In this document: piece after piece, positions 21,889-34,462 of the stretch
How the letters are laid out: every line of letters starts with the position of its first letter
Position numbering within the stretch: the stretch's first letter is position 1
Source of the DNA: Candidatus Acidiferrum sp.
GTDB lineage: Bacteria > Chloroflexota > Dormibacteria > CF-121
Assembly (NCBI GenBank): GCA_035602395.1
Contig: DATNMH010000052.1
Location: 2,829-66,828 of the forward strand
Reading direction: 5' to 3'
DNA length: 64,000 nt
Notes under the pieces: model-generated
The model's input: only the letters and a program-made list of their open reading frames with translations
Databases searched by the model: none
What the model was told of the DNA's origin: nothing
Made by a program: the position numbers and the translations under genes

Positions 21889-22305
21889 ATGTCGAAGGTC
21901 CTGTTCGTCTGCACGCAAAACGCCGGCCGATCGCAGATGAGCGAGGCACTCTTTCGACGCGCGGCCGGCGGCCGACACGAGTCTCGCTCGGCGGGCACGC
22001 GTCCGGCGGAGCACGTCCACCCGGTGGTCGCCGAGGCGATGCGCGAGATCGGCATCGACGTCTCTGGGAACCGACCGCAGAAACTCACGGACGAGCTGGG
22101 TCAATGGGCTGACATCGTCGTCACCATGGGGTGTGGGGATGAGTGCCCCTACATCCCTGGAAAGAAATACGTCGACTGGGATCTCACCGATCCCGCGGAT
22201 AAGTCTCTGGCTGAAGTCCGCGCCATTCGCGACGACATCAAGACACGCGTGAGCGACCTCGTTGTCGAGTTGGACTCGCGAAGGGCCGTTCGCTCAGCGA
22301 GCTAG
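21889..22305 (+). CDS. arsC: arsenate reductase, LMW-PTPase type
   Basis: P-loop VLFVCTQNAGRSQM and downstream GCGDECP. Confidence 0.9.
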   Translation: MSKVLFVCTQNAGRSQMSEALFRRAAGGRHESRSAGTRPAEHVHPVVAEAMREIGIDVSGNRPQKLTDELGQWADIVVTMGCGDECPYIPGKKYVDWDLTDPADKSLAEVRAIRDDIKTRVSDLVVELDSRRAVRSAS

Positions 22306-22956: not shown

Positions 22957-25050
22957 GTGCCTAAAGAGGGCTTTGTGACCAAACCGCACTCGGCGTCCAG
23001 CTTCCGGACCCGCTTCAACTGGCGTCTCTGGGTGGTGTTGGGGGCCCTGACCGAACTCTTCCTCATCTACGTCGCGCGCTGGTGGGCGCCCTCGCCGGTC
23101 ACCTACTTCCTGGCGGTGCTCTTCCTGCCGGTGATGGTCCTGACCGGCTTCTGGTCCTCCAAGTACTTCAAGCTGGTCCAGCTGAATCTCGAGCTCTCCC
23201 GGCGGGCCGATCAGAACCTCCAGGAGCTGAGCCACTTCTTCGAGACGGCGACCGCGGTCTCCAACCTCACCAAGCTCGGCGAGGACCTGGGCACGCTCAC
23301 CCTGAAGCTGGCGGAGCTGCTCGATGTGGAGATGTGCGGCTTCTTCCTCTACCAGAACGGCCTCGAGGCGCTGATCGCGCCAGCCGCGCCCTCAGGGATG
23401 CGGGAGAGCCGGCTCTTCAACCAGATGCGTCTCAACCAGCTCCGCTTCGGCGCCAACGCATCGACACTGATCGGCCGGGTCTTCGTCACCCAGCAGCCGG
23501 TCATCATCGCCGACTGCCTGCACGACATCGAGGCCGGCCAGCTGCTGCCGCAGACGTTCGGGTACCACGACCTTCTTCTGGTGCCACTCGGCTTCGGTGG
23601 CCGCCCGCTCGGTGTCCTGATGCTGGCCAACAAGCGCAATGGGCAGTTCAGCGGCAACTATGACGTCAAGCTCGCCGCCTCGCTCGGAGCCGAGGTCGCC
23701 GTTTCGCTCGAGAACACGTTCCTCTTCGAGCAAACCCGCCAGCAGGCGCTGCGGCTCGACGCGTCGATGGAGATGCTGCGCCAGGTCTCGCAGGCGCTGA
23801 CGGCGACCACGGTGGGACCGACGGCCCTGCTGCAGGGCGTCGCTCGCGCCGTGATCGGCGTCTCGGGCGCCGCCTCCTGTCTCATCACCCTGACCCAGTC
23901 CGGCAACCCCGCGCAGCAGGCGGTCGAGGTGGGGGAGGGTGCGGACCCCCGACTCCACGCCGATGCCGCGACGCCGGCGGTCCCCGGGCTCGTCACCCAG
24001 GTCGTGATCGAGCAGCGACCCGTCTTCTCCGAGGACGTCCAGCTCGACGGTCGCTTCCCGCTCGATCCGTTCGCCCAGAAGTCCGGCTGGCGGGCTGCCC
24101 TCGGGCTACCGATGTTCCTCGAGCGAGAGTTCGTCGGTACGGTGTCGGTCTACTTTCACGACGTCCGCGCCTTCGATGCCACCCTGATGCAGGTGCTGCA
24201 AATCCTCGCCAACCAGGCCGCGGTCGCCCTCGACAACGCGCGTCGGTTCCAGCGGGAGCGTCAAACGATCCAGATGTTGCAGCGCGCCAACCTGGAACTG
24301 CAGGAAGCCGACCGCATGAAGTCCGAGTTCCTGACCAACATGTCTCACGAGCTCCGCACGCCGCTGAATGCGATCATCGGGTTCTCGGAGATCATCCGTA
24401 CCACCCCCGAGCTTTCTGAAGGCGAGCGCGAAGAGTTCGCGGGGACGATCCACAGCAGCGGCCGCCGGTTGCTGAAGTTGATCAACGACATCCTGCAACT
24501 GACCCACATCCAGGCCGGCCGGCTCGAGCTTCATCCCGCGCCCTGCGTGCTGGCCGAAGCCGTTGACGCGGCGCTGTCGGAAAATGCCGCGGCCGCCAAC
24601 CAGAAAGAGCTCACCGTCACCTCCCAGGTGGACCGGGCGATGCAGGTCGTCTTCGATCCCCAAAGCCTTCGCCACATCGTGCACAACCTGGTCAACAACG
24701 CGATCAAATTCACACCGCATCACGGGAGCGTGATCATCAGCGCCTCCGAGGGCGCGCCCGGCACCATCGTCGAGGTCCGTGACAACGGGATCGGCATCAA
24801 GCCAGAGGACCAGCAACGCCTCTTCGAGGAGTTCCGCCAGGTCGACGGCTCGACCTCGCGCGGCTACGAAGGCGTCGGGCTCGGCCTGGCCCTCTCGAAA
24901 CGACTGGTGGAGCTGCAAGGCGGCCAGATCTGGGTGGAAAGCGCGCCCGGGCGAGGGAGTGTCTTTCGCTTCCTGATCCCGCGGCTGCCTATGCTCGCGG
25001 CGGTCCCGCCCCCGACGCTCGCGGAGGGACCCCTTCCGAGGGTGGCATGA
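22957..25050 (+). CDS. membrane GAF-GAF sensor histidine kinase
   Basis: N-terminal TM helices, two GAF-like regions, H-box SHELRTPLN, and N/G1/G2 boxes (NNAIKFT, DNGIGI, GVGLGLA). Confidence 0.9.
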   Translation: MPKEGFVTKPHSASSFRTRFNWRLWVVLGALTELFLIYVARWWAPSPVTYFLAVLFLPVMVLTGFWSSKYFKLVQLNLELSRRADQNLQELSHFFETATAVSNLTKLGEDLGTLTLKLAELLDVEMCGFFLYQNGLEALIAPAAPSGMRESRLFNQMRLNQLRFGANASTLIGRVFVTQQPVIIADCLHDIEAGQLLPQTFGYHDLLLVPLGFGGRPLGVLMLANKRNGQFSGNYDVKLAASLGAEVAVSLENTFLFEQTRQQALRLDASMEMLRQVSQALTATTVGPTALLQGVARAVIGVSGAASCLITLTQSGNPAQQAVEVGEGADPRLHADAATPAVPGLVTQVVIEQRPVFSEDVQLDGRFPLDPFAQKSGWRAALGLPMFLEREFVGTVSVYFHDVRAFDATLMQVLQILANQAAVALDNARRFQRERQTIQMLQRANLELQEADRMKSEFLTNMSHELRTPLNAIIGFSEIIRTTPELSEGEREEFAGTIHSSGRRLLKLINDILQLTHIQAGRLELHPAPCVLAEAVDAALSENAAAANQKELTVTSQVDRAMQVVFDPQSLRHIVHNLVNNAIKFTPHHGSVIISASEGAPGTIVEVRDNGIGIKPEDQQRLFEEFRQVDGSTSRGYEGVGLGLALSKRLVELQGGQIWVESAPGRGSVFRFLIPRLPMLAAVPPPTLAEGPLPRVA

Positions 25051-27476
25051 CCGAGCAGGGTACGCCTCGCCGGATTCTGATCGCGGACGACGATCCCGAA
25101 CGCCTGCGCACCAGCGTCGAGCGGCTGCAGCAGGAAGGCTTTACCGTGCTCTCCGCGCAGGACGGCCTGGAGGCGCTCGACCGCGCTCGCGAGGAGCTGC
25201 CGGATGCCATCATCCTCAACCTGCTGCTGCGCCGGATCGACGGGCTTCGGGTTTGCGAGATCTTGAAGAGCAACCCGGCGACGACCAACATCCCCGTCCT
25301 CCTCACGGCGGGCGTCCACGTCGATGCCGACGAGGGCCAGCGAGCGCTCGCTGCCGGCGCCGACCGATTTCTGAGCGACCTCAGCCCACTGTCGACCGGC
25401 TCCGGACGCGAACTGGGGAGCCAGGATCTGGTGCAGGCCGTGCGCACCATGCTCGGCGCCGAGCCGGAGCTCGAAGCGCGTCCCATCCTGCTCGCGATCG
25501 ACGACGATCCCGATAACCGCGCCTTCCTCACCAAGGCGGTGGCAAAGCAGGGCTTCGAGGTGGTGACGGCGCCAAACGCCACTCAGGCGCGCCGCCAGCT
25601 CGACTCACGCCGGCCGGCGCTGATCTTCCTCGATGTTCAGATGCCGGAGGAGAGCGGGTTGGCCCTGCTGCCCCAAATGCTGCGCGACTACCCCGAATCG
25701 GTGGTCGTCATGATGACCGCCTACGGGTCGGAACAGGTCGCCGCCGAAGCGCTGCGCGGGGGCGCCGACGACTACATCGCCAAACCGATCGACCTGCAGC
25801 GCCTGCGCGCGCTGCTGGAGCGCAACCTCGACAAGCAGCGGCTGCGCGCCGAGCGGCAGAGTCTGGTGGCGCGGCTGAAGGATTCGAATCGATACCTGAT
25901 GCGACAGCACGCCGCGCTCCGCCGAGCGGACGAAGAAATCCTCCAGATCAACCGGCAGCTGGAGCAGTCGAACCGCTACAAATCAGAATTCCTCGCCAAC
26001 ATGTCGCATGAGCTGCGCACCCCGCTGAACGCCGTCCTCGGCTTCAGCGAAATCCTGCTCGACGCGACCATGAACCTGACGAGCGGCGAACGCACCGAGT
26101 TCCTTCGCAACATCCACAGCAGCGGCCAGCACCTGCTGGGGCTGATCAACGACATCCTCGACCTGGCCAAAATCGAGGCCGGCAAGATGGAACTGCACGC
26201 CGAAGAGATGCCGGTGGCGGAGGCGCTCCAGGAAGTCACCTCGATCCTGGAACCCATGGCCCGCCAGCAGGGGCTGCAGCTGATCCTGGCCGGACTGGCC
26301 GACGTGGGCGTCATCAAAGCGGATCGCAGCAAGTTCAAGCAGGTGCTGTACAACCTGCTCTCGAACGCCGTCAAGTTCACCCCGCCGCCCGGTCAGATCA
26401 CGGTCACGGTCAAGGATTCGCCCGAGCAGCTGACCGTCTCGGTGCACGACACCGGTATCGGGATGAAGGAAGAGGACCTGCCCAAGCTCTTCCGCGAGTT
26501 CGAGCAGATCGACGGCTCCTACACCCGCCGCTACCAGGGCACCGGCCTCGGGCTCGCGCTCTGCCGCCGCTTCGTGGAGATGCACGGCGGCCGGATCTGG
26601 GCGGAGAGCCATTTTGGCAAAGGCTCGACGTTTACCTTCACCATCCCCCGGGACGCGCGGCTCGGGCCCGCGGCCGAGCCCGCCGTGGACGAGGCGCAGA
26701 CGGTCGAATCCATGGAGCTGCCCCTGGTCCTCGTGGTCGAGGACGACCCGGCCAGCAGTCAGCGCTTGACCGCCGAGATCCAGGGGGTGGGCTTTCGGGT
26801 GGCGCACGCGGTCGACGGCAACGAGGCCGTGCGCAAGGCGATGGAGATCCTGCCCGACCTGATCGTGATCGAGACCGTGCTGCCGGTGAAGGACGGCTGG
26901 CAGGTGCTGACAGAGCTGCGCGCCCGCGCGGCCACCGCCGACGTCCCGGTGCTGGTCTGCTCGGTGACCAAAAACCAGCAGCTGATGACCGAGTTTGGCG
27001 TGGTCGGCTACGTCGCGAAACCGTGGGCGACCAAAACCATGCAGGATGAGCTCCGCCGGGTCGGGCTGGGGATCAAGCGACGCCGCGACCGGGTCCGGGT
27101 GTTACTGGTCCACCGCGAGCGGCGGGCGCTGGCGCCGCTGGCGGCCGCCCTGGTGGAGGAAGGTTTTGAGGTCTTTCGGGCGCCCGGGCTGCAGGAGGCC
27201 CTCGAAAAGGCACGGGCGGCGGCGCCCGACGTCGTCGTGCTGGCGCCACCTGAGCCGGAATGGGTCCTGGGCCTGCGCGGGCTGCCCGGGCAACCCGCTT
27301 TGCTGGCCCTGGGTGAAGTTTCACCGAGGGTGCCAGCGACGGCGTGGAGCGCCGTTATACCTACCGGCCTCTCCGAGCCCGATGCCGTATTGCACGCCAT
27401 CAAGGGCCTGGACATCGTTCAGAGGCGAAGGAGGACAGGGCGTGACCGGCGGCAAGGTCTTGATCGTCGAAGATAA
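25047..27476 (+). CDS. hybrid histidine kinase: REC-like/REC/HisKA/HATPase/REC-like/REC-like
   Basis: 809 aa. H-box SHELRTPLN and HATPase boxes. Four receiver folds, of which only the second has a canonical Asp (IFLDVQMP). ATGA overlap with the upstream gene. Confidence 0.9.
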   Translation: MTEQGTPRRILIADDDPERLRTSVERLQQEGFTVLSAQDGLEALDRAREELPDAIILNLLLRRIDGLRVCEILKSNPATTNIPVLLTAGVHVDADEGQRALAAGADRFLSDLSPLSTGSGRELGSQDLVQAVRTMLGAEPELEARPILLAIDDDPDNRAFLTKAVAKQGFEVVTAPNATQARRQLDSRRPALIFLDVQMPEESGLALLPQMLRDYPESVVVMMTAYGSEQVAAEALRGGADDYIAKPIDLQRLRALLERNLDKQRLRAERQSLVARLKDSNRYLMRQHAALRRADEEILQINRQLEQSNRYKSEFLANMSHELRTPLNAVLGFSEILLDATMNLTSGERTEFLRNIHSSGQHLLGLINDILDLAKIEAGKMELHAEEMPVAEALQEVTSILEPMARQQGLQLILAGLADVGVIKADRSKFKQVLYNLLSNAVKFTPPPGQITVTVKDSPEQLTVSVHDTGIGMKEEDLPKLFREFEQIDGSYTRRYQGTGLGLALCRRFVEMHGGRIWAESHFGKGSTFTFTIPRDARLGPAAEPAVDEAQTVESMELPLVLVVEDDPASSQRLTAEIQGVGFRVAHAVDGNEAVRKAMEILPDLIVIETVLPVKDGWQVLTELRARAATADVPVLVCSVTKNQQLMTEFGVVGYVAKPWATKTMQDELRRVGLGIKRRRDRVRVLLVHRERRALAPLAAALVEEGFEVFRAPGLQEALEKARAAAPDVVVLAPPEPEWVLGLRGLPGQPALLALGEVSPRVPATAWSAVIPTGLSEPDAVLHAIKGLDIVQRRRRTGRDRRQGLDRRR

Positions 27477-27831
27477 TCCGGTCAATCTCAGGTTGGCCCA
27501 GTTCCTTCTGGAAAAAAAGGGCTTTACCGTCCGCAAGGCGGGCAGCGGCGCCGAATGCCTGGCGGAGATGGCCCGCGAGCTTCCGGACATCGTCCTGATG
27601 GACATCCAGCTTCCCAGCGAGGATGGGCTGGCGGTCACTCGCAAGATCCGCTCCGACCCACGCCTGGCGGGCGTGATCGTGGTCGCCCTGACGGCGCACG
27701 CCATGGCCGGTGACCGGGAACGAATCCTGGCGGCCGGCTGCGACGGCTATATCCCTAAGCCGGTCGACCCGCAGGGGCTGCCCGGCGAGGTGGCGCGGTA
27801 TCTCGAGCAAGGACGGTTGAAAACGGCCTGA
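27442..27831 (+). CDS. stand-alone CheY-like response regulator receiver
   Basis: VLIVEDNPVN...IVLMDIQLP...ALTAHAM...YIPKP. GTG 27442 with GAAGGAGGA upstream. Overlaps the upstream gene by 35 nt. Confidence 0.85.
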   Translation: MTGGKVLIVEDNPVNLRLAQFLLEKKGFTVRKAGSGAECLAEMARELPDIVLMDIQLPSEDGLAVTRKIRSDPRLAGVIVVALTAHAMAGDRERILAAGCDGYIPKPVDPQGLPGEVARYLEQGRLKTA

Positions 27832-28166
27832 TGCCAGACCAGCCCCCGAAAACCAGCCGCTCCTATCCCGACATCCTCAAACTCAACCAGGAGCTGGTGC
27901 GCAACCTCCAGGGCTTGAATGACGAGGACGAGGCGCGCAAGAAGGAGCTCGAGCAGCTCAAGGTCGCCCACGACCAGGCGAAGGCCGAGATCGCCCGCCT
28001 ACAGGAAGAGCTTCGCCACTCGACCGAACGCGAGGCCGCCCGGCAGGAGGAGCTTCGCCAGCTGGAGCAGGAACGGGTGGACCAGCTGGGTGCGATGGAT
28101 GCCCACCTCAACGCGATGCATTCGGCGGTGGAGCGCTACCTGCAGCAGGGTCGGAAGGCGGCCTGA
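27831..28166 (+). CDS. small coiled-coil protein, N-terminal paralog of the next gene
   Basis: 111 aa with heptad-rich sequence. TGATG start/stop overlaps at both ends. Confidence 0.65.
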   Translation: MPDQPPKTSRSYPDILKLNQELVRNLQGLNDEDEARKKELEQLKVAHDQAKAEIARLQEELRHSTEREAARQEELRQLEQERVDQLGAMDAHLNAMHSAVERYLQQGRKAA

Positions 28167-30613
28167 TGAGTCCGGAGCCATCCAAGGCGAAATCGTTCGC
28201 CGACATCCTGCAGCAGAACCAGGAGTTCATCGCGCACCTCCAGACGCTGCAGGAAGACATCGCCACGCAGCTGGAAGAAAAGGCTAAGGAACTGGCGATG
28301 GTGAAACGCCAGCTGGCGGCCAAGCAGCAAGAGACCGACGAGCTGCAGAATTCGCAGCTCCAGTGGGCCATCGACCGCCAGGCCCTTCTCGATCAGCACG
28401 AAGCCCTCAAACAGGGACACCAGGACCTGCAGCAGAGCCACGACCGCGGCCAGGTCGAGCTCGGGCGGCTCAAGGATGACGTCGCCCGCGCCAAGGCGCG
28501 CGATGAGGAGCGCCGCAGCCAGCTCCGACAGCTGGAGCAGGAGCGCATGCAGATCACGCAGAAATTCGAGGCCGACCAGAAGAAGATCCGGGCCGACCTG
28601 AAGTCCGCGCAGGACGATCTCGACAGCCTGCAGTCGGCCCAGCTCCAGTGGGCCATGGATCGCGAAACGCTGCTGAAAGATCGAGACACCGTGGTCGCCA
28701 AGCAGGCGCAACTGGAGCAGGATTGGCAGAAGGGCCGCGCCGACCTCACCCTGGACAAGGTCCGCTTGACGGAACTTACGACCCAGCTGCAGCAGCAGTT
28801 GAAGGCCGTCCAGGCCGAGCTCGAGCCGATCAAGGCGGCCCGCGACAAGTGGCAGGCGGAGCGGCAGCGGCTGATCGCCGACGTGGCGCGGCTGGAGCAG
28901 GGCGGGCAGGAAGCCGAGGCCCAGTTCAAGGCCGACCGCCGGCTCCTGCAGGGACAGCTCGAGGAAGCCCGCAAGAAGGGGGCCGATCTCGACAAAGCCG
29001 AGGCGGAGTTCCAGCGGGTCAGCGACGAGCGCTCGGCGCTGCTGAGCAAGGTCAAGGCCCTGGAAAAGGACTGGCAAATTCGCGAGTCGTCGGTCGCCGA
29101 GGAAAAGGCGGGGTTGAAGAAGCAGGCCGGCGACGCCACCGCCAAGCTTGCAGCCGTGCTGCAGGACGCCGAGAAGCTCAAGGCGCTCCACGCCGACCTC
29201 GCCGGTGAGACGAGCCGCAAAGCGGAGGAATGGACCGCCCGAGAGCAGCGACTGACCTCCGAAAAGAACCAGCTCAAGGTCGACCTGGAGCGGGTGCAGG
29301 CGCAGCTCTCCGACATGATGTCGCAGACCAACGAGCTGCACAGTGAGCGGGCGAAGGAAGCTAAGGAACTGGACGAAGCCTGGAAACGGGAAAAGGCGTC
29401 GCTCAAAGCCCAGCTCGAGGAGGCCCGCAAGGCGGCCGGGAGCGGGCCGCCCACCAGCCAGGTGCTCGCCCGCTACGAAGCCGAGAAGCGCGCCATGCAG
29501 GCGCAGCTGGACAGCGTGCGCAACGACCTGGCCGCGAGCGGCAAACACAAGGACACGGCACCGGCGTTGGCCCAGGCGAAGCGCGACTTCGAGGCCAAGT
29601 TCCGCGTCATCTACGACCAGAGCCACGACCTCAACTCACCGCTCAACGCGATCCTGGGCTTCAGCGAGATCCTGCTCGACGAAAAGGCCAACAAGACGAC
29701 GCCCGAAGAACGGCGCGAGTTCGTCGCTCACATCAACGAGAGCGGCAAGCGGCTCGTCGAACATATCCGCGAGCTGATCGAGTTCGCCAAGCAGGAAGCC
29801 GGCATCCAGGAGCGCCCGGTGCAGATGGTACCGCCGGTCGGGGCCGGGACCAAGCCGCCCGTCATCCTGGTTGCCGACAACGACCCGGCGGTCAAGGAGC
29901 GGATCGAGCCCTTCCTCAGCCACGCCGGTTACGAAGTCGTGATCGCCGCCAGCGCCCAGGAGGCGCTGCGCAAGGCCGTCCAACTGCAGCCGCTCGCGGT
30001 CCTCATCGACACCCAGCTGCCGCCCAACGGCGGAAGCGGACTCGTCTATGACCTGCGGCGCGAATCGAAAACCAAGGACATCCCGATCGTGTTGACCTCC
30101 AAGGTCAACAAGGAATCGCTCGCCTTCGACATTGGCCAGGCCGACTTCCTGACCAAGCCGATCGACCGTCAGCAGCTGCTGCAGATGATGGTGAAGTTCG
30201 ACCTGCTGGCCGACGGCAAGCGGGGCAAAAAGACCCCGTCCTCCATCCTGATCGTGGACGACGACCCGCAGAACATCCGCTTGATCAAGGCGATGCTGAA
30301 ACCGTTCAACATCGAGGTCATGGTCGCCGACGGCGGCAAGGCCGGCGTCGAAATGGCCCTGAAGAAGAAGCCCGATCTCATCATCCTCGACCTGATGATG
30401 CCGGACGTCGATGGCTTCGAGGTTGTCTCCAAACTCAAAGAGGACCCCGCGGCGAGCCAGATCCCCATCCTTATCTATACGGCCAAAAACATCACCAGCG
30501 AGGACCGCGAGCGCCTGCAGGGGAACATCCAGTCGATCATCCAGAAAGGGGACTTTGGCAAAGACCGCTTCCTCGAGATGATCAACAACCTCCAGATCAG
30601 CCAGGCCGCCTAG
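28166..30613 (+). CDS. coiled-coil / DHp (HisKA-like, no ATPase domain) / REC / REC protein
   Basis: 815 aa: about 480 aa of coiled coil, then H-box SHDLNSPLNAILGFSEILL (His codon 29624-29626). No N/G boxes. Two receivers follow (AVLIDTQLP; LIILDLMMPDVDG). Confidence 0.85.
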   Translation: MSPEPSKAKSFADILQQNQEFIAHLQTLQEDIATQLEEKAKELAMVKRQLAAKQQETDELQNSQLQWAIDRQALLDQHEALKQGHQDLQQSHDRGQVELGRLKDDVARAKARDEERRSQLRQLEQERMQITQKFEADQKKIRADLKSAQDDLDSLQSAQLQWAMDRETLLKDRDTVVAKQAQLEQDWQKGRADLTLDKVRLTELTTQLQQQLKAVQAELEPIKAARDKWQAERQRLIADVARLEQGGQEAEAQFKADRRLLQGQLEEARKKGADLDKAEAEFQRVSDERSALLSKVKALEKDWQIRESSVAEEKAGLKKQAGDATAKLAAVLQDAEKLKALHADLAGETSRKAEEWTAREQRLTSEKNQLKVDLERVQAQLSDMMSQTNELHSERAKEAKELDEAWKREKASLKAQLEEARKAAGSGPPTSQVLARYEAEKRAMQAQLDSVRNDLAASGKHKDTAPALAQAKRDFEAKFRVIYDQSHDLNSPLNAILGFSEILLDEKANKTTPEERREFVAHINESGKRLVEHIRELIEFAKQEAGIQERPVQMVPPVGAGTKPPVILVADNDPAVKERIEPFLSHAGYEVVIAASAQEALRKAVQLQPLAVLIDTQLPPNGGSGLVYDLRRESKTKDIPIVLTSKVNKESLAFDIGQADFLTKPIDRQQLLQMMVKFDLLADGKRGKKTPSSILIVDDDPQNIRLIKAMLKPFNIEVMVADGGKAGVEMALKKKPDLIILDLMMPDVDGFEVVSKLKEDPAASQIPILIYTAKNITSEDRERLQGNIQSIIQKGDFGKDRFLEMINNLQISQAA

Positions 30614-30628
30614 GACCGGGGGGCCGGC

Positions 30629-32893
30629 ATGACTGCCCTCGATCGCCAGCTCGTCCGACTCCGCTTCGCCGCGCTCGCGATTCCATTTGGCCTGCTCCTC
30701 TGGCTGCCTTCGGCGTCAGTCGCGATCACGATCGTGCTCGCCGGACTGATGGCCGCCTACAACGGCATCGCGTTGCTCGCGATCCGCAGGCGGGCCGCCC
30801 CGCGTTTCGCCCGCCCGATGGCGGTCCTGCTGCTGGTTCTCGACCACGCCGTCATCAGCGCCTGGATCCTGCTCTTCGCCGGTCCATCCTCGAGCCTTCC
30901 GTACCTGCTCTATGCGCTGGTTGCGGCCGAAGCCGTCTTTCGCTTCGAGCTCTGGGGTGGGATCGGGACCAGCCTCTTTTTCACCAGCGGCGTCATCCTC
31001 TTCCAGACCAGCGACCTGGGCCTCGCCATCTCGGTCCGCGACTCGGTGCTCCGCGCCATCCCGACGGTGGTCGTTATCACCGGCTTGGGCGCCGCGGTGC
31101 GCGCGATGAACACCGAGATTCGTGGCACGCGACGGCGGCTCGATCAGACAGAACAATTGCGCAATGTGCTGGGCGAGCTGGTCGGACAGCTCGACGTCTC
31201 ACGGATGCTCAACACCGTGATCCGGTGCGGCATGGAGCTGCTCCAGATGGATTCCGGCGCCATCGTCCTCCTGGATGAAGATCGCGGCGTCTTCACCTTG
31301 CGCGCCGCGGTCCGTCTGCCGGGGGCTGTCGAAGGGTCAGCTATCTCGGCGGCGGACGGCATCGTTGGCCGAGTCGTGCGGGAGAAGCGCTTCGTCATGC
31401 TGGTCGAGCCTCCGCTCTTCGACCTCAATGCCCTCAACGCGGCCGGCTACGCGCGCGCCTTCGGCTCCCCCGTGGTGCTGGAAGGCAAGGTCTTCGGCGT
31501 GCTGCACCTCCAGACCCACGATGACCAGCGACGCCTGACGCGATGGGAAGAGGAGGCGCTGGAGGTCCTCTCGCAGCAGCTGGCAGTGGCGCTTCGCAAC
31601 GTCCGTCTCTTCGAGGAAAGCGAGAAGCGCGCCCGGCGGCTCGAGCTCCTCAACCAATCGATCGACCAGATGAATCAGAAGCTCTTCGAGCCCGAGCTAC
31701 TGGACGTGGTCGCGACCGCCCTCACCGGTAACCTCGGGTTCGCCGCGGCGCAGGTCTGGCTGCTCGAGCCAAGCGACGGCGCCCTCTGGCGGCGTGCCAG
31801 CCACCACACCACCGCCGAGCCGCCGCCCGTCTCCGGACGGGTCGAGCGTGGGATGAGCGAGATCGGCCAGGTCGCCGAACTGCGGGTGCCGATCGTGACC
31901 AACGACCCTGCCAACCATCGCCAGGTTGGCCTCAGTCCGTGGATGACCGAGGAGGGCATCCAGGCCTTCGCGGGCTTTCCGCTGGTCGTCGGCGAGCAAC
32001 TGCTGGGCGTGCTCGCCGTCTATCACCGGCGCCCGCTCGACCGCAACACGATCGAGCTGTTGACCCTGTTCGCGCAGCACGCCGCCACCGCGATCCAGGA
32101 AGCGCACCTCTTTCACCTCGCCACCGAACAAACGGCGCGGCTCACCGCGCTCAACGTCGAGCTGCAGCGCGCCAATCAACACAAGGCGGAGTTCCTCGCC
32201 AACATGAGCCATGAGCTGCGCACGCCGCTCAACTCGATCCTCGGGTTCTCGCAGTTGCTGCTCGAAGGTGACGGCGGCGTCCTGACCGGCGATCAGCGGC
32301 AGGACGTCGACATCATTGCCCAGAATGGACAACACCTGCTGGCGCTGATCAACGACCTGCTCGATATCTCGAAGCTGGAGGCGGGCAAAGCGCAGCTCCA
32401 TCGCGGCGAGGTCGAGGTCGAGCCGCTGATCTCGGAGTGTGTCGAGAGCGTCCGGTCCCTGGCCAAAACCAAAAAGCTCGATCTGAGCGCGAGCGTCTCG
32501 CCCGAGGTGGGCCGCGTCTTCGCCGACGGCCCCAAGCTCAAGCAGGTCCTGCTGAACCTGCTCGGCAATGCCATCAAGTTCACCGAGACCGGCAGCGTCC
32601 GCGTCACGGCCGAACGTCAAGGCGCCGAGTTGCGCGTCAGCGTGCGCGACACCGGCATCGGCGTCCCCGTTGAGGACACCGAGCGGATCTTCGAGAGCTT
32701 TCAGCAGGGCAAGAGCGGCATCAGCGGCAAATACCAGGGCACCGGCCTGGGCCTGGCGATCTCTCGCCAGCTGGTGGAAATGCACGGCGGCCGCATCTGG
32801 GTGAAGAGTGCAGCCGGCCAGGGCAGCACGTTCACCTTCACCATTCCTCAGCGGGCCGTCCCCGACGCGATCGACCTGTCGAGCGCGGCGTAA
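30629..32893 (+). CDS. polytopic membrane GAF-GAF sensor histidine kinase
   Basis: About 6 TM helices, two GAF regions, SHELRTPLN, and HATPase boxes (GNAIKFT, DTGIGV, GTGLGLA). Confidence 0.9.
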   Translation: MTALDRQLVRLRFAALAIPFGLLLWLPSASVAITIVLAGLMAAYNGIALLAIRRRAAPRFARPMAVLLLVLDHAVISAWILLFAGPSSSLPYLLYALVAAEAVFRFELWGGIGTSLFFTSGVILFQTSDLGLAISVRDSVLRAIPTVVVITGLGAAVRAMNTEIRGTRRRLDQTEQLRNVLGELVGQLDVSRMLNTVIRCGMELLQMDSGAIVLLDEDRGVFTLRAAVRLPGAVEGSAISAADGIVGRVVREKRFVMLVEPPLFDLNALNAAGYARAFGSPVVLEGKVFGVLHLQTHDDQRRLTRWEEEALEVLSQQLAVALRNVRLFEESEKRARRLELLNQSIDQMNQKLFEPELLDVVATALTGNLGFAAAQVWLLEPSDGALWRRASHHTTAEPPPVSGRVERGMSEIGQVAELRVPIVTNDPANHRQVGLSPWMTEEGIQAFAGFPLVVGEQLLGVLAVYHRRPLDRNTIELLTLFAQHAATAIQEAHLFHLATEQTARLTALNVELQRANQHKAEFLANMSHELRTPLNSILGFSQLLLEGDGGVLTGDQRQDVDIIAQNGQHLLALINDLLDISKLEAGKAQLHRGEVEVEPLISECVESVRSLAKTKKLDLSASVSPEVGRVFADGPKLKQVLLNLLGNAIKFTETGSVRVTAERQGAELRVSVRDTGIGVPVEDTERIFESFQQGKSGISGKYQGTGLGLAISRQLVEMHGGRIWVKSAAGQGSTFTFTIPQRAVPDAIDLSSAA

Positions 32894-32901
32894 CGGCTCC
32901 G

Positions 32902-33495
32902 CTAACCGAGGAGACCCGTGATCAGGGCGATCGCGACCAGCACCATGACGCCGGCGGCCGCGAACTGTAGCGGGCGCTCGGGGATCCACGCGCCGAGGCG
33001 GTTTCCCAGGGCCACCGCGATCGCCGACACCGACCACAGGGCGAGGGTCGCGGCCGTGAAAACGATGACGGGTTCGCGATAGCGCGCCTGGAAGGCCGCC
33101 GTCGCCAGTTGCGAAAGGTCGCCCCACTCGGCGACAAAGACCACCATGAATGCCGTCAGAAACGGACGCCGATAGCGGGCTTCCTCGCGTTCGACCTCGA
33201 CGGCCTCCTTGGCCTCGACCTTCTTGAGGTTTTGCCGGATCAGCAGCGCGGCCATCGCGAGAAAGAGAATGCCGGCGCCGATGCGCACGGGCTCACGAGG
33301 AAGCAACGCGAAGATCGACCCGGCGATGACCGCAACCAGGCTCTGGACCAGGAACGCGGCGGCCGCGCCAGTGAACACGGGTATCGGGCGATGCCGTGTG
33401 GCCAGCAACAGCGCCGCCACCGCCGTCTTGTCTGGCAGCTCGATCAGGAAGATGACGAGAAAGACAGTGAGCCCAAGACCCAGCGCGTGAGTCAC
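32902..33495 (-). CDS. TMEM165/GDT1 (UPF0016) family cation transporter
   Basis: Two E-x-G-D-(KT/LS) motifs (ELPDKT, EWGDLSQ) in a 6-TM protein. GTG start. Confidence 0.85.
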   Translation of the reverse strand: MTHALGLGLTVFLVIFLIELPDKTAVAALLLATRHRPIPVFTGAAAAFLVQSLVAVIAGSIFALLPREPVRIGAGILFLAMAALLIRQNLKKVEAKEAVEVEREEARYRRPFLTAFMVVFVAEWGDLSQLATAAFQARYREPVIVFTAATLALWSVSAIAVALGNRLGAWIPERPLQFAAAGVMVLVAIALITGLLG

Positions 33496-33530: not shown

Positions 33531-33599
33531 TTAATGGATCCAGAGCGGGAAGGAGAGGATGAAGACGAGAACGCCGAGACCCAGGGTGCGCATGCTCAT
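33531..33599 (-). CDS. candidate 22-aa hydrophobic peptide translationally coupled to the response regulator
   Basis: ATGA overlap with the regulator stop (33596-33599). Sequence MSMRTLGLGVLVFILSFPLWIH forms a single TM helix. Confidence 0.3.
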   Translation of the reverse strand: MSMRTLGLGVLVFILSFPLWIH

Positions 33600-34462
33600 C
33601 CCGCCATCGCCAGTGGCTCTTGTCCGGCCGGGTAGTTGACCTTGGCGCTGAAGCGGTAGCCGACGCCACGCTTGGTTTGGATGTAGACGGGTTTGCTGGG
33701 GTTGGGCTCGATCTTGCTGCGCAGGCGCGAGATGTGCACGCGCAGGCCCTCTTCGTAGGCTTCCTCGTCGCCGGCCCATGCCTTGGCCAGGAGGGTCTCG
33801 TTGGTGACGACCCGGCCGGCGTTGCGGACGAGGAGGAACAGCAGCTTGGACTCAGTCGGCGTCAGGGTCACCTGCTGGCCTTTGACGCGAGCCCAGTGCT
33901 GGACGAAGTTGATCTGCAGATCCTGGTCGATGACGACTTCCGGCTGCTCGACGCCGGCGGACTCGCCGTAGCGGCGCAGCACGCGCTGCACGCGGGCGAC
34001 CAGCTCTTCTTTCTCGAAGGGCTTGACGATGTAGTCCTCGGCGTACATTTGCAGGCCCTCGACCTTGCTCTCCACCGCCGCGACCGCGCTGAGGATGACG
34101 ATCGGGACATCGAGGTGGCTCTTGATGCGGCGGCAGAGTTCGAAGCCGTCCATCTCCGGCATCATCAGATCGACGACGACCAGGTGCGGGATTCCCTCGT
34201 GGAGTTTGCGCAGCGCCTCGGGACCACTGCCGGCGGTCATGACCTCGTAGCCCGCGTGCTCGAGGATGCGCTTCAGGATCTCGCGCGCCATCGCATCGTC
34301 GTCGACGATTAGAATCCGGTACCGGTTGACGATGTTAAACCCCTCTCTTCCGGCGGCCAGTGCGCGTCGCGCTGCCGACCGGCCACCATGGATTTGGACC
34401 TGCGGCTGCTGGCTCAGGTCCGACTGGAGAGCCGGCAAAGGTATATGGCCCTCGTCATGCAT
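33596..34462 (-). CDS. OmpR/PhoB family response regulator
   Basis: REC (ILIVDDD...VVVDLMMPEMDG...KPF) plus winged helix (LTPTESKLLFLL...IQTKRGVGYRF). The start is uncertain: ATG 34462 gives a 43-aa extension, and the alternative is ATC 34333. Confidence 0.9.
   Translation of the reverse strand: MHDEGHIPLPALQSDLSQQPQVQIHGGRSAARRALAAGREGFNIVNRYRILIVDDDAMAREILKRILEHAGYEVMTAGSGPEALRKLHEGIPHLVVVDLMMPEMDGFELCRRIKSHLDVPIVILSAVAAVESKVEGLQMYAEDYIVKPFEKEELVARVQRVLRRYGESAGVEQPEVVIDQDLQINFVQHWARVKGQQVTLTPTESKLLFLLVRNAGRVVTNETLLAKAWAGDEEAYEEGLRVHISRLRSKIEPNPSKPVYIQTKRGVGYRFSAKVNYPAGQEPLAMAG

What the first reader, a model, noticed from the sequence alone, without database searches (positions are those of the whole stretch)
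28166..30613. 815-aa protein: ~480-aa coiled coil fused to a catalytic-domain-less DHp and two receivers
After the long heptad-rich region there is a recognisable H-box and two-helix DHp: SHDLNSPLNAILGFSEILLDE...EFVAHINESGKRLVEHIRELIEFAK. The His codon is at 29624-29626.

The sequence then runs through a short linker directly into a receiver (PVILVADND...AVLIDTQLP). I could not find N, G1 or G2 ATP-binding boxes. A second, canonical receiver follows (ILIVDDDPQN...LIILDLMMPDVDG...).

Such a protein cannot autophosphorylate. It would have to be phosphorylated in trans, act as a phosphotransfer hub, or act as a phosphatase. The coiled coil also contains an internal duplication: LQNSQLQWAIDRQALLDQHE versus LQSAQLQWAMDRETLLKDRD.
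Basis: partly seen in the sequence, partly recalled or inferred. Interest (0 to 1): 0.65.

Follow-up and report, generated by a model that had tools for sequence, protein, structure and literature searches.

The report
Kinase-less histidine relay protein on coiled coil
This soil-bacterium protein keeps the phosphorylatable histidine helix and two receiver domains of a hybrid sensor kinase, has cleanly lost the ATP-binding domain and gained a ~450-residue coiled coil, so it most likely relays or removes phosphate made by the three true kinases encoded beside it.

Summary
ORF 28166-30613 (+) encodes 815 aa: a helical, heptad-patterned region (aa 11-457), a HisKA/DHp hairpin (aa 467-542, His487 at 29624-29626), a 23-residue Pro-rich linker, then two receivers. 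There is no HATPase_c. All 120 close orthologs have exactly 80 residues between the His and receiver 1.

The gene is under strong purifying selection, so it is not a decayed gene. It defines a family of at least 15 clusters, seen almost only in Candidatus Dormibacterota. Every relative outside the family is DHp-CA-REC-REC, so the family arose from a ShkA-like hybrid kinase by loss of the CA domain.

His487 and the receiver 2 catalytic residues are invariant. The acidic residue after the His, needed only for autokinase activity, is lost in 9 of 16 clusters. The phosphatase position (H+4) stays Ser/Thr. Receiver 1 is partly degenerate yet the most constrained domain.

The gene sits in a conserved cassette with three complete kinases, a stand-alone receiver and a small coiled-coil paralog.

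Best reading (confidence 0.45): a Spo0B/ChpT/PhyT-like histidine phosphotransferase and phosphatase hub. "HisKA without HATPase" proteins are already a recognised but unstudied class, so this is a new variant. Interest is moderate.

The parts
28166..30613 (+). CDS of the 815-aa CA-less protein (called X815 here): coiled coil, DHp, REC1, REC2
   Evidence: ORF and translation. More than 120 full-length orthologs at 80-99% identity. dN/dS is 0.00-0.15 in all regions.
28196..29536 (+). Long alpha-helical, heptad-patterned region (aa 11-457). It has breaks at aa 244-274 and 424-431 and carries seven Trp residues in a recurring W-x-x-[DERK]-[RKE]-x-x-[LV] context.
   Evidence: AF2 helices 11-243, 275-423 and 432-457. 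Register scan and Trp contexts. Six of the seven Trp fit the strict motif, against 0.1 expected from shuffles.
28343..28402 (+). Copy 1 of the repeated motif LQNSQLQWAIDRQALLDQHE (aa 60-79)
   Evidence: The motif LQxxQLxWAxDRExL recurs 1-3 times in family members.
28628..28687 (+). Copy 2 of the repeated motif LQSAQLQWAMDRETLLKDRD (aa 155-174). R166 is invariant in the 16-sequence alignment and nearly invariant among 42.
29564..29791 (+). DHp (HisKA) helical hairpin, aa 467-542. It is complete up to the AK-x-EAG motif that normally precedes the CA domain.
   Evidence: Pfam HisKA E 2.5e-13. AF2. 47% identical to the DHp of the neighbouring 809-aa kinase.
29624..29626 (+). Codon CAC of His487, the H-box phospho-acceptor position. 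The context is S-H-D-L-N-S-P-L-N.
   Evidence: Invariant in 120 orthologs and in all family clusters.
29792..29860 (+). 23-residue Pro-rich disordered linker (aa 543-565) in the place where relatives carry the ~150-aa CA/HATPase_c domain
   Evidence: AF2 pLDDT below 50. Relatives outside the family carry a CA domain here.
29861..30211 (+). Receiver 1 (aa 566-682). It has Asp571 and Asn572 in the acidic pocket, acceptor Asp615, Thr644 and Lys664-Pro665. It is partly degenerate but the most constrained domain.
   Evidence: Pfam. Alignments to solved receivers and CheY. The acceptor is Glu in 4 of 16 clusters. dN/dS 0.00-0.05.
30200..30241 (+). Conserved REC1-REC2 linker FDLLADGKRGKKTPS. D679, A682, D683 and P691 are invariant and R686 is nearly so.
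   Evidence: No non-synonymous change in five ortholog comparisons.
30242..30607 (+). Receiver 2 (aa 693-814). It is canonical: Asp698, Asp699, acceptor Asp742 (30389-30391), Thr772 and Lys794. Lys794 is followed by Gly rather than Pro.
   Evidence: Pfam. Family invariants. CheY alignment.
27831..28166 (+). 111-aa coiled-coil protein (CC111), a truncated paralog of the X815 N-terminal module. Its stop codon overlaps the X815 start (TGATG).
   Evidence: BLASTP: 39% identity over 57 aa, E 2e-8. It aligns to the N-terminus of the family member P0124. Present in loci at >=75% identity and absent in the 62% orthologs.
27442..27831 (+). Stand-alone canonical receiver (about 129 aa). The GTG start has GGAGG upstream. 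It overlaps the 3' end of the preceding kinase gene, and its stop overlaps the CC111 start.
   Evidence: It is the most conserved member of the cassette at 79-99% identity.
25047..27476 (+). 809-aa kinase: pseudo-REC (acceptor Asn), REC (canonical), HisKA, HATPase_c, REC (acceptor Glu), degenerate REC
   Evidence: Pfam. Receiver alignment.
22957..25050 (+). 697-aa GAF-GAF-HisKA-HATPase_c histidine kinase
   Evidence: Pfam.
30629..32893 (+). 754-aa GAF-GAF-HisKA-HATPase_c histidine kinase, starting 16 nt after the X815 stop
   Evidence: Pfam.
33596..34462 (-). OmpR-type response regulator on the convergent strand, followed by a GDT1-family transporter gene (32902-33495). Its adjacency to the cassette is conserved.
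   Evidence: Pfam. Synteny.

Best explanation
X815 is a non-catalytic descendant of a DHp-CA-REC-REC hybrid histidine kinase. It has lost the ATP-binding domain and now works as a DHp-type histidine phosphotransferase, probably also as a receiver phosphatase, inside a multi-kinase phosphorelay.

**Shown**
- It has a complete DHp with an invariant His, no CA domain, one canonical receiver (Asp742) and one semi-degenerate receiver.
- It lies in a conserved, translationally coupled cassette with three complete kinases, a stand-alone receiver and a small coiled-coil paralog.

**Inferred**
- The protein dimerises through the DHp and the coiled coil.
- The neighbouring kinases phosphorylate a receiver Asp, either on the stand-alone REC or on X815 REC2.
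- The phosphoryl group is exchanged reversibly with His487, which acts as the second His of the relay. It is then passed to a second receiver: X815 REC2, the stand-alone REC or the OmpR-type regulator.
- The unphosphorylated DHp, through Ser491, accelerates receiver dephosphorylation.
- REC1 and the invariant REC1-REC2 linker act as a regulatory pseudo-receiver module, as in ShkA.
- The coiled coil and its small paralog set oligomeric state or location.
For: **Architecture and origin**
- There is no CA domain, only 80 aa from His487 to REC1 strand beta1, in 120 of 120 orthologs. None of the 42 family members matched HATPase_c among the listed Pfam families.
- All relatives outside the family are DHp-CA-REC-REC. 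The DHp-REC2 pair therefore descends from an intramolecular His-to-Asp relay.

**Conservation**
- His487, Asn494, Gly498 and Phe499 are invariant in both alignments. So are the REC2 residues Asp698 and Asp699. Asp742, Thr772 and Lys794 are invariant or nearly so in the two alignments.
- dN/dS is 0.03-0.05 for the DHp, 0.00-0.05 for REC1 and 0.03-0.10 for REC2.
- The acid at H+1 is kept in only 7 of 16 clusters, while H+4 is Ser or Thr in 16 of 16. In CrdS and HK853 the H+1 acid is needed only for kinase activity, H+4 only for phosphatase activity, and neither for phosphotransfer (PMC3510030).

**Context**
- The cassette HK-HK-REC-CC111-X815-HK is conserved from 62% to 99% identity, with overlapping stop and start codons.
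- No Hpt domain was found in the cassette genes or the flanking ORFs tested.

**Precedent**
- The Pak to SdrG to PhyT(His) to PhyR relay uses a stand-alone receiver that feeds a kinase-like His phosphotransferase (PMC5898713).
- ChpT and Spo0B are dimeric DHp-type phosphotransferases (PMC3433190).
Against: - No biochemical data exist for any member, and "HisKA, no HATPase" proteins are experimentally unstudied (PMC5847659).
- There is no detectable sequence similarity to Spo0B or ChpT.
- The X815 orthogroup itself keeps Asp488 and Pro492, which are features of active kinases. This would also fit phosphorylation of the His by a partner's CA domain.
- Ser at H+4 is not the canonical Thr/Asn, and its phosphatase competence is untested.
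- AF2 does not give a confident DHp-receiver arrangement (pTM 0.31 and 0.43).
- Most paralogs are orphans with no kinase nearby, so operon-based partner assignment applies only to this orthogroup.
Confidence: 0.45

Rival explanations
1. X815 is a substrate phosphorylated in trans, as in a split kinase or a heterodimer. Its DHp either forms heterodimers with the DHp of a neighbouring kinase, most likely the 809-aa one, or is visited by a neighbour's CA domain. His487 is then phosphorylated directly from ATP and passes the phosphate to REC2.
For: - The X815 DHp is 47% identical to the DHp of the adjacent 809-aa kinase, 42% to the 697-aa kinase and 36% to the 754-aa kinase.
- The orthogroup keeps the kinase-type H-box residues Asp488 and Pro492 in 120 of 120 sequences.
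- CheA3/CheA4 is a characterised split kinase, and separated EnvZ DHp and CA domains retain activity (PMC3591291).
- RetS and GacS interact through their DHp domains (PMC8498467, listed).
Against: - No partner with a CA domain but no His exists in the 64-kb window. All three neighbouring kinases have their own H-box.
- Across the family the H+1 acid needed for autokinase chemistry is lost in 9 of 16 clusters, while the His stays invariant.
- Most paralogs have no kinase gene nearby.
Confidence: 0.2
2. X815 is a dedicated phosphatase and phosphate sink. The CA-less DHp only dephosphorylates receivers, and REC2 drains phosphate from the neighbouring kinases, which sets a threshold for the pathway. 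His487 is retained for structural or catalytic-assist reasons.
For: - The H+4 position, which is the only residue required exclusively for HisKA phosphatase activity, is Ser or Thr in 16 of 16 clusters (PMC3510030).
- HisKA proteins lacking HATPase have been proposed to be phosphatases (PMC5847659; PMC3591291).
- There are two receivers per chain.
Against: - In CrdS the His contributes little to phosphatase activity: the half-life was 2.6 min for H371A against 0.7 min for wild type. Absolute invariance of His487 across clusters of 33-63% overall identity is therefore not explained.
- Ser is not the canonical Thr/Asn.
Confidence: 0.15
3. X815 is a phosphorylation-independent scaffold or cytoskeletal pseudokinase. 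The coiled coil forms a structural assembly. The DHp and receivers serve only as dimerisation and docking modules, as in PsmA, DivL or FrzS.
For: - The ~450-aa coiled coil has a conserved N-terminal motif and repeated Trp motifs.
- Weak Pfam matches to filament and coiled-coil families occur in family members.
- REC1 is degenerate, and the 809-aa neighbour carries pseudo-receivers.
- Precedents are PsmA (PMC12963549) and FrzS (PMC1974792).
Against: - Unlike PsmA and FrzS, the phospho-sites are intact and invariant or nearly so: His487 and the REC2 residues Asp698, Asp699, Asp742, Thr772 and Lys794.
- The catalytic-site domains are far more constrained than the coiled coil (dN/dS 0.00-0.10 against 0.12-0.15).
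Confidence: 0.1

Closest known systems
DHp-type histidine phosphotransferases: Spo0B (Bacillus), ChpT (Caulobacter), PhyT (Sphingomonas)
   Same: - They are kinase-like dimeric proteins with a phosphorylatable His that do not autophosphorylate.
- They shuttle phosphate from one receiver to another.
- PhyT is fed by a stand-alone receiver that several kinases phosphorylate, and it is bifunctional (PMC5898713, PMC3433190).
   Different: - No sequence similarity to these proteins was detectable.
- From my own knowledge, Spo0B and ChpT keep a degenerate CA-like C-terminal domain. X815 has none and carries two fused receivers and a ~450-aa coiled coil instead.
- The activity of X815 is untested.
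ShkA-type hybrid kinases (DHp-CA-pseudoREC1-REC2; PDB 6QRJ)
   Same: - The domain order is the same apart from the CA domain.
- The first receiver has an incomplete acidic pocket, the second is canonical, and the REC1-REC2 linker is conserved.
- All non-family relatives of X815 have this layout.
- 6QRJ is recovered both by sequence, for the DHp, and by fold.
   Different: - The CA domain is deleted, so there is no autokinase activity.
- The linker motif is D-x2-A-D-x2-R rather than DDR.
- REC1 keeps one pocket acid, and keeps the acceptor Asp in most members.
- c-di-GMP binding was not tested.
"HisKA, no HATPase" or "possible incomplete histidine kinase" class (P2CS; Galperin 2018; 3.66% of SMART HisKA proteins)
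   Same: - It has a HisKA domain with a conserved His and lacks HATPase_c.
- Roles proposed in the literature are phospho-acceptor, phosphotransfer or phosphatase (PMC5847659, PMC3591291).
   Different: - That class is a heterogeneous descriptive bin, mostly sensor-HisKA or REC-PAS-HisKA proteins.
- The architecture coiled coil-HisKA-REC-REC, its conserved operon and its restriction to one phylum were not described in the papers found.
Split kinase CheA3/CheA4 (Rhodobacter sphaeroides)
   Same: The phosphorylatable module and the ATP-binding module are on different polypeptides. The His-bearing partner is also a phosphatase (PMC3591291).
   Different: - That system belongs to the CheA class, with a P1/HPt domain rather than a DHp.
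- Here no partner that has a CA domain but lacks a His exists nearby.
Pseudokinases and coiled-coil receiver proteins: PsmA (Streptomyces), FrzS (Myxococcus)
   Same: They are kinase- or receiver-derived proteins combined with long non-globular regions, and they act as scaffolds at defined cell sites (PMC12963549, PMC1974792).
   Different: - PsmA lacks the His and keeps a dead CA domain.
- FrzS lacks the acceptor Asp and has no DHp.
- X815 keeps an intact His and an intact REC2 site.

Membership tests
Histidine kinase (HisKA-type, autophosphorylating) | DHp/HisKA domain with an H-box His | tested here: met
   Pfam HisKA E 2.5e-13 at aa 482-546. His487 is invariant.
Histidine kinase (HisKA-type, autophosphorylating) | CA/HATPase_c ATP-binding domain (N, G1, F and G2 boxes) | tested here: not met
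   No HATPase_c at E<=1. Only 23 disordered residues lie between the DHp and REC1. No family member matched it among the listed Pfam families. No Bergerat-fold structural hit.
ShkA-like hybrid kinase (DHp-CA-pseudoREC-REC) | CA domain between the DHp and the first receiver | tested here: not met
   Present in all relatives outside the family (L035-L079) and absent in L001-L034 and in X815.
ShkA-like hybrid kinase (DHp-CA-pseudoREC-REC) | First receiver with an incomplete acidic pocket, second receiver canonical | tested here: inconclusive
   REC1 has Asp571 and Asn572 where CheY has Asp12 and Asp13, and the acceptor is Glu in 4 of 16 clusters. However, Asp615, Thr644 and Lys664 are present in X815. 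REC2 is canonical.
ShkA-like hybrid kinase (DHp-CA-pseudoREC-REC) | Conserved REC1-REC2 tether motif (DDR) and c-di-GMP binding by REC1 | not tested
   The linker is invariant but has a different motif, D679-x2-A682-D683-x2-R686.
DHp-type histidine phosphotransferase (Spo0B/ChpT/PhyT) | Helical-hairpin His domain with no kinase activity of its own | tested here: met
   AF2 hairpin 467-504 and 513-542 carrying His487. The lack of kinase activity follows from the absence of a CA domain. Dimerisation itself is not testable here.
DHp-type histidine phosphotransferase (Spo0B/ChpT/PhyT) | Sequence homology to Spo0B, ChpT or PhyT | tested here: not met
   A PDB sequence search with the DHp returns GacS, RetS, SrrB, ShkA and DivL, but not Spo0B or ChpT, at E<=0.01.
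DHp-type histidine phosphotransferase (Spo0B/ChpT/PhyT) | Asp to His to Asp phosphotransfer | not testable with these tools
   Needs in vitro phosphotransfer assays.
"HisKA, no HATPase" (incomplete HK) descriptive class | HisKA with a conserved His and no HATPase_c | tested here: met
   The class is defined in PMC5847659 and counted in PMC3591291.
Split kinase (CheA3/CheA4-like) | A separate partner protein that carries a CA domain but has no phospho-acceptor His | tested here: not met
   tblastn of CA domains against the whole window finds only the three complete kinases. The rest of the genome was not available.
Histidine pseudokinase (PsmA/DivL type) | Loss of the H-box His | tested here: not met
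   His487 is invariant. PsmA has Glu, Asp, Gln, Val or Tyr at this position (PMC12963549).

The most novel reading that the evidence does not exclude
The coiled coil-DHp-REC-REC proteins could be a Dormibacterota-specific set of signalling rods. In this reading, several paralogs per genome assemble through their long coiled coils and shared N-terminal motif, with small truncated paralogs such as CC111 acting as caps or competitors. The assembly would be a spatially organised phosphorelay hub. A kinase-less DHp would collect phosphate from many kinases, and the abundance of the hub would be set by ClpXP-type proteolysis.

Two observations prompt the proteolysis idea. The C-terminus is conserved as Ala-Ala or Ala-Ser. 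In one paralog group a stand-alone ClpX zinc-finger protein is encoded immediately upstream, in the uvrC-whiA cell-cycle gene neighbourhood.
Probability: 0.1. Interest if true: 0.75.

Novelty: new variant of a known kind. Interest (0 to 1): 0.5.

Why it matters
**Why this family is a useful test case**
- Two-component theory treats the DHp and CA domains as an inseparable catalytic core.
- Proteins with a HisKA domain but no HATPase domain make up a few percent of HisKA proteins. They have been noted in censuses, but I found no experimental study of this class.
- This family offers a clean natural experiment. The CA domain was precisely excised from a known hybrid-kinase layout.
- The survivor is under very strong purifying selection and has diversified into many paralogs.
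- The sequence constraints separate in the way expected from biochemistry. The His and the phosphatase position are kept, while the autokinase acid is relaxed.

**What it would show if confirmed**
- A classical DHp can evolve into the second His of a phosphorelay without a dedicated HPt or Spo0B-like fold.
- Three kinases can be integrated through one non-catalytic hub.

**Wider value**
- It gives a first handle on signalling in Dormibacterota, a soil phylum known here only from metagenome-assembled genomes.

Tried and rejected
- **Hidden CA domain: rejected.** Pfam at E<=1, the AF2 secondary structure, Foldseek and the fixed 80-aa spacing all argue against it.
- **Pseudogene or assembly artefact: rejected.** There are more than 120 intact orthologs from independent metagenomes, and dN/dS is at most 0.15.
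- **CC111 and X815 as one frameshifted or fused gene: rejected.** CC111 aligns to the same N-terminal module as the X815 N-terminus, not to an upstream extension. The 62% orthologs lack it, with only about 220 nt between genes.
- **A CA-only split partner in the window: not found**.
- **An Hpt domain in the cassette genes and the flanking ORFs tested: not found**.
- **NCBIfam:** no model reached its cut-off, only generic receiver and kinase similarity.
- **PDB sequence search for Spo0B or ChpT similarity: negative**.
- **PsmA-type pseudokinase: rejected,** because the His is conserved.
- **AF2 domain arrangement:** confidence was too low to use, with pTM 0.31 for the full length and 0.43 for the fragment. 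No multimer prediction was available.
- **Promoter and terminator scan of 21.7-35 kb:** no more sites than in shuffles, so uninformative.
- **Long antisense ORFs over the coiled-coil region** (28136-29626 and 28393-29454 on the minus strand): I read these as by-products of GC-rich, repetitive codon usage (AT skew 0.364).


Full report
**1.

The ORF 28166-30613 (+) is open and encodes 815 aa.

Pfam finds HisKA at aa 482-546 (E 2.5e-13) and two Response_reg domains (E 1.3e-36). It finds no HATPase_c even at E<=1. The three neighbouring kinases score 1e-31 to 1e-34 for HATPase_c in the same call.

AlphaFold2 on a 42-sequence family alignment (mean pLDDT 72) gives these elements:

| Residues | Element |
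|---|---|
| 11-243, 275-423, 432-457 | long helices |
| 467-504, 513-542 | DHp hairpin |
| 543-565 | disordered linker |
| 566-682 | receiver 1 (REC1) |
| 693-814 | receiver 2 (REC2) |

A second model of aa 431-815 agrees. Foldseek against the PDB returns tandem receivers (PleD), single receivers and ShkA, but no GHKL ATPase.

The internal duplication is real. The pair ETDELQNSQLQWAIDRQALL / DLDSLQSAQLQWAMDRETLL scores 69, against 36 +/- 4 (maximum 53) in 200 shuffles. All seven Trp residues of the helical region sit in a recurring context. Six of them fit the strict pattern W-x-x-[DERK]-[RKE]-x-x-[LV], against 0.1 expected.

Heptad registers persist for tens of residues, and most shifts are +4, which is stutter-like. 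Pairing into a coiled coil is inferred, not shown.

**2. It is a functional gene in Candidatus Dormibacterota**

- The closest proteins are named Dormibacteraeota or Chloroflexi MAG proteins. The best genome locus, at 96% identity, is a Candidatus Dormiibacterota MAG.
- More than 120 clusters at 80-99% identity all have the H-box SHDL[NT]SPLN, the REC1 strings ILVADNDP and LAVLIDTQLP, and exactly 80 residues from the His to REC1 strand beta1.
- Nei-Gojobori estimates against five orthologs (dS about 0.5-1.3) are:

| Region | dN/dS |
|---|---|
| helical region | 0.12-0.15 |
| DHp | 0.03-0.05 |
| REC1 | 0.00-0.05 |
| REC2 | 0.03-0.10 |
| REC1-REC2 linker | no non-synonymous change |

**3. Origin by clean loss of the CA domain**

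In 34 Dormibacterota loci the homolog is DHp-REC1-REC2 with no CA domain. In the full-length orthologs it is preceded by the coiled coil. In all other relatives examined, the DHp is followed by a CA domain and, wherever the ORF is complete, by two or more receivers. These relatives are 29-41% identical and come from Anaerolineae, Nitrospirota, Planctomycetes and other groups.

The DHp of X815 runs to the AK-x-EAG motif that normally leads into the CA domain (FAKQEAGIQERP against LAKIEAGKMELH in the neighbour). It then continues into a Pro-rich linker.

An exhaustive HMMER search of 1.84 billion representatives with aa 470-815 found about 15 clusters at the 50% identity level that match DHp through REC2 in one uninterrupted stretch. 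They are 546-935 aa long and 44-82% identical over this region. All other top hits match in two to six stretches.

Where source names exist, they are Chloroflexi MAG, Dormibacteraeota or Limnocylindrales, plus one Streptosporangiaceae. Pfam on 42 members gives Response_reg in 42 of 42 and HisKA in 36 of 42. HATPase_c is not among the listed families.

**4. What is conserved across the family**

*DHp*
- His487, Asn494, Gly498 and Phe499 are invariant.
- H+1 is acidic in only 7 of 16 clusters. The residues seen are D, E, T, H, A, R, L and S.
- H+4 is Ser in 14 clusters and Thr in 2.
- The Pro at H+5 is not conserved.

Willett and Kirby showed for CrdS and HK853 that the H+1 acid is required only for autokinase activity. 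They also showed that the H+4 Thr/Asn is required only for phosphatase activity, and that neither is needed for phosphotransfer (PMC3510030). The family pattern therefore fits loss of autokinase chemistry with retention of a phospho-His and possibly of phosphatase function.

*REC2*
- Asp698, Asp699 and Asp700 are invariant. Asp742, Thr772 and Lys794 are invariant or nearly so in the two alignments.
- Lys794 is followed by Gly rather than Pro.

*REC1*
- Alignment to solved receivers and to CheY places Asp571 and Asn572 at CheY Asp12 and Asp13.
- The second position is variable across the family.
- The acceptor Asp615 is Glu in 4 of 16 clusters.
- Asp573, Lys664 and Pro665 are invariant.

*Other conserved elements*
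- In the REC1-REC2 linker, D679, A682, D683 and P691 are invariant and R686 is nearly so.
- There is an N-terminal motif, (P)SFxxLLxxxxxFLxxLxxL.
- The C-terminus is conserved as Ala-Ala or Ala-Ser.

**5. Genomic context**

The gene is the fifth of six tightly packed plus-strand genes:

| Coordinates | Product |
|---|---|
| 22957-25050 | GAF-GAF-HisKA-HATPase kinase (697 aa) |
| 25047-27476 | 809-aa kinase |
| 27442-27831 | stand-alone canonical receiver (GTG start with GGAGG upstream) |
| 27831-28166 | CC111, 111-aa coiled-coil protein |
| 28166-30613 | X815 |
| 30629-32893 | second GAF-GAF kinase (754 aa) |

- Both junctions around CC111 are TGATG stop/start overlaps.
- The 809-aa kinase has four receiver-like domains. 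Their acceptor positions are Asn, Asp, Glu and absent.
- CC111 is a truncated paralog of the X815 N-terminal module.
- An OmpR-type regulator followed by a GDT1 transporter lies convergently downstream.
- The cassette is syntenic in all ortholog loci from 62% to 99% identity. CC111 is missing only in the 62% orthologs.
- No other two-component domains, and no CA-only ORF, occur in the 64-kb window. No Hpt domain was found in the genes tested.

More distant paralogs are orphans with no kinase nearby:
- One group always follows uvrB-uvrA-uvrC and a small ClpX zinc-finger-like protein. It precedes lgt, and in L080 also whiA-gap-pgk-tpi.
- Others sit among unrelated metabolic genes.
- One MAG carries both the ortholog and a paralog (L030 and L033).

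**6. Mechanism**

*Shown:* the protein cannot bind ATP through a CA domain and therefore cannot autophosphorylate.

*Inferred:* the DHp and coiled coil dimerise. His487 is a phospho-site that exchanges phosphate with receiver aspartates.

I consider a phosphorelay most likely, at confidence 0.45. Phosphate generated by the three neighbouring kinases would reach a receiver, either the stand-alone REC or X815 REC2. It would then be exchanged with His487 and passed to a second receiver. The DHp would also act as a phosphatase through Ser491.

The closest characterised logic is Pak to SdrG to PhyT(His) to PhyR (PMC5898713), and the Spo0F-Spo0B and CckA-ChpT relays (PMC3433190). REC1 and the invariant linker probably form a regulatory pseudo-receiver module like that of ShkA, where REC1 binds c-di-GMP and a conserved linker motif tethers REC2 (PMC6969517). 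Ligand binding here is untested.

The rivals are:

| Rival | Confidence | Main support | Main objection |
|---|---|---|---|
| Direct trans-phosphorylation of His487 by a neighbour's CA domain or in a heterodimer | 0.2 | 47% DHp identity to the 809-aa kinase; Asp488 and Pro492 retained in this orthogroup | No His-less CA partner found; H+1 relaxed across the family |
| Pure phosphatase or phosphate sink | 0.15 | H+4 Ser/Thr conserved in 16 of 16 clusters | Does not explain the invariant His |
| Phosphorylation-independent scaffold | 0.1 | Long coiled coil with conserved motifs | Phospho-sites are intact and strongly constrained |

**7. Comparison with what is known, and novelty**

HisKA proteins that lack HATPase are a recognised descriptive class. 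They make up 3.66% of SMART HisKA proteins (PMC3591291). They are listed as "possible incomplete histidine kinase" or "HisKA, no HATPase", and for the related REC-(PAS/GAF)-HisKA regulators the census states that none has been studied experimentally (PMC5847659).

X815 meets that definition. It fails the defining test for a histidine kinase and for a ShkA-type hybrid kinase, because it has no CA domain. It shows no sequence homology to Spo0B or ChpT. It is not a PsmA-type pseudokinase, because the His is kept.

I found no description of the architecture coiled coil-DHp-REC-REC, its conserved six-gene cassette, or its expansion in Dormibacterota. I rate it a new variant of a known kind, with interest about 0.5. 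It would not overturn current understanding. It is, however, an unusually clean and testable case of a DHp repurposed after loss of the CA domain.

Noticed in passing
window 27831-28166 (+): An 111-aa coiled-coil protein is a truncated paralog of the X815 N-terminal module. It shares the motif S-[FY]-x-D-I-L-x-x-N-Q-E and is 39% identical to aa 72-128. It is translationally coupled to both neighbouring genes. It is present in orthologous cassettes at >=75% identity and absent in the 62% orthologs. It may cap or compete with the coiled coil.
   Followed up: partly
window 27442-27831 (+): The stand-alone canonical receiver gene is hidden inside a longer mechanical ORF (26995-27831). Its likely start is a GTG with GGAGG upstream, which overlaps the 3' end of the 809-aa kinase gene by 35 nt. 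It is the most conserved gene of the cassette.
   Followed up: partly
window 25047-27476 (+): The 809-aa kinase carries four receiver-like domains, of which only one is canonical. Their acceptor positions are Asn, Asp, Glu and absent. Its layout after the DHp (CA, a receiver with Glu at the acceptor position, a degenerate receiver) mirrors X815 with a CA domain added.
   Followed up: partly
window 30605-30610; C-termini of alignments A1 and A2: The family C-terminus is conserved as Ala-Ala (11 of the 15 complete C-termini in A1) or Ala-Ser, although the preceding tails differ (NNLQISQAA against KRGERRxR...AA). Ala814 is invariant in the 42-sequence alignment. Only 2 of 73 window ORFs of at least 250 aa end in AA. 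From my own knowledge this resembles ClpXP-type C-terminal degrons such as that of CtrA.
   Followed up: partly
L080 7677-7958; L033 9717-9938: In one paralog group a 73-93-aa protein consisting of a ClpX-type zinc finger (CSFCG...C.DC) is encoded immediately upstream of the coiled coil-DHp-REC-REC gene. The local gene order is uvrB-uvrA-uvrC before the pair and lgt after it. In L080 whiA-gap-pgk-tpi follow.
   Followed up: partly
window 28166-29600: Seven Trp residues (aa 67, 162, 187, 229, 303, 356, 406) each occur in a recurring W-x-x-[DERK]-[RKE]-x-x-[LV] context. This suggests that the coiled coil is built from repeated modules of 25-95 aa. The role of the motif is unknown.
   Followed up: partly
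window 28136-29626 (-) and 28393-29454 (-): Long antisense ORFs of 496 and 353 aa overlap the coiled-coil coding region. The 28-30 kb bin has an AT skew of 0.364. Both look like by-products of the Gln/Glu/Lys/Ala-rich, GC-rich codon usage rather than genes.
   Followed up: no
window 32902-33495 (-) and 33596-34462 (-): An OmpR-type regulator is followed on the same strand by a GDT1-family divalent cation/proton antiporter gene. The pair is convergent with the kinase cassette, and the adjacency is conserved across orthologous loci. This may be an output of the system.
   Followed up: no
window 21889-22305 (+): A low-molecular-weight phosphotyrosine phosphatase (LMWPc) gene lies about 650 nt upstream of the first kinase gene, with an uncharacterised 133-aa ORF between them. 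Its conservation was not checked.
   Followed up: no
loci L011, L013, L024, L029, L031: MAGs that carry the syntenic cassette are labelled Actinomycetes, Candidatus Binatus, Limnocylindrales or Limnocylindria, and Eisenbacteria. These may be taxonomic mislabels or binning errors rather than true occurrences outside Dormibacterota.
   Followed up: no
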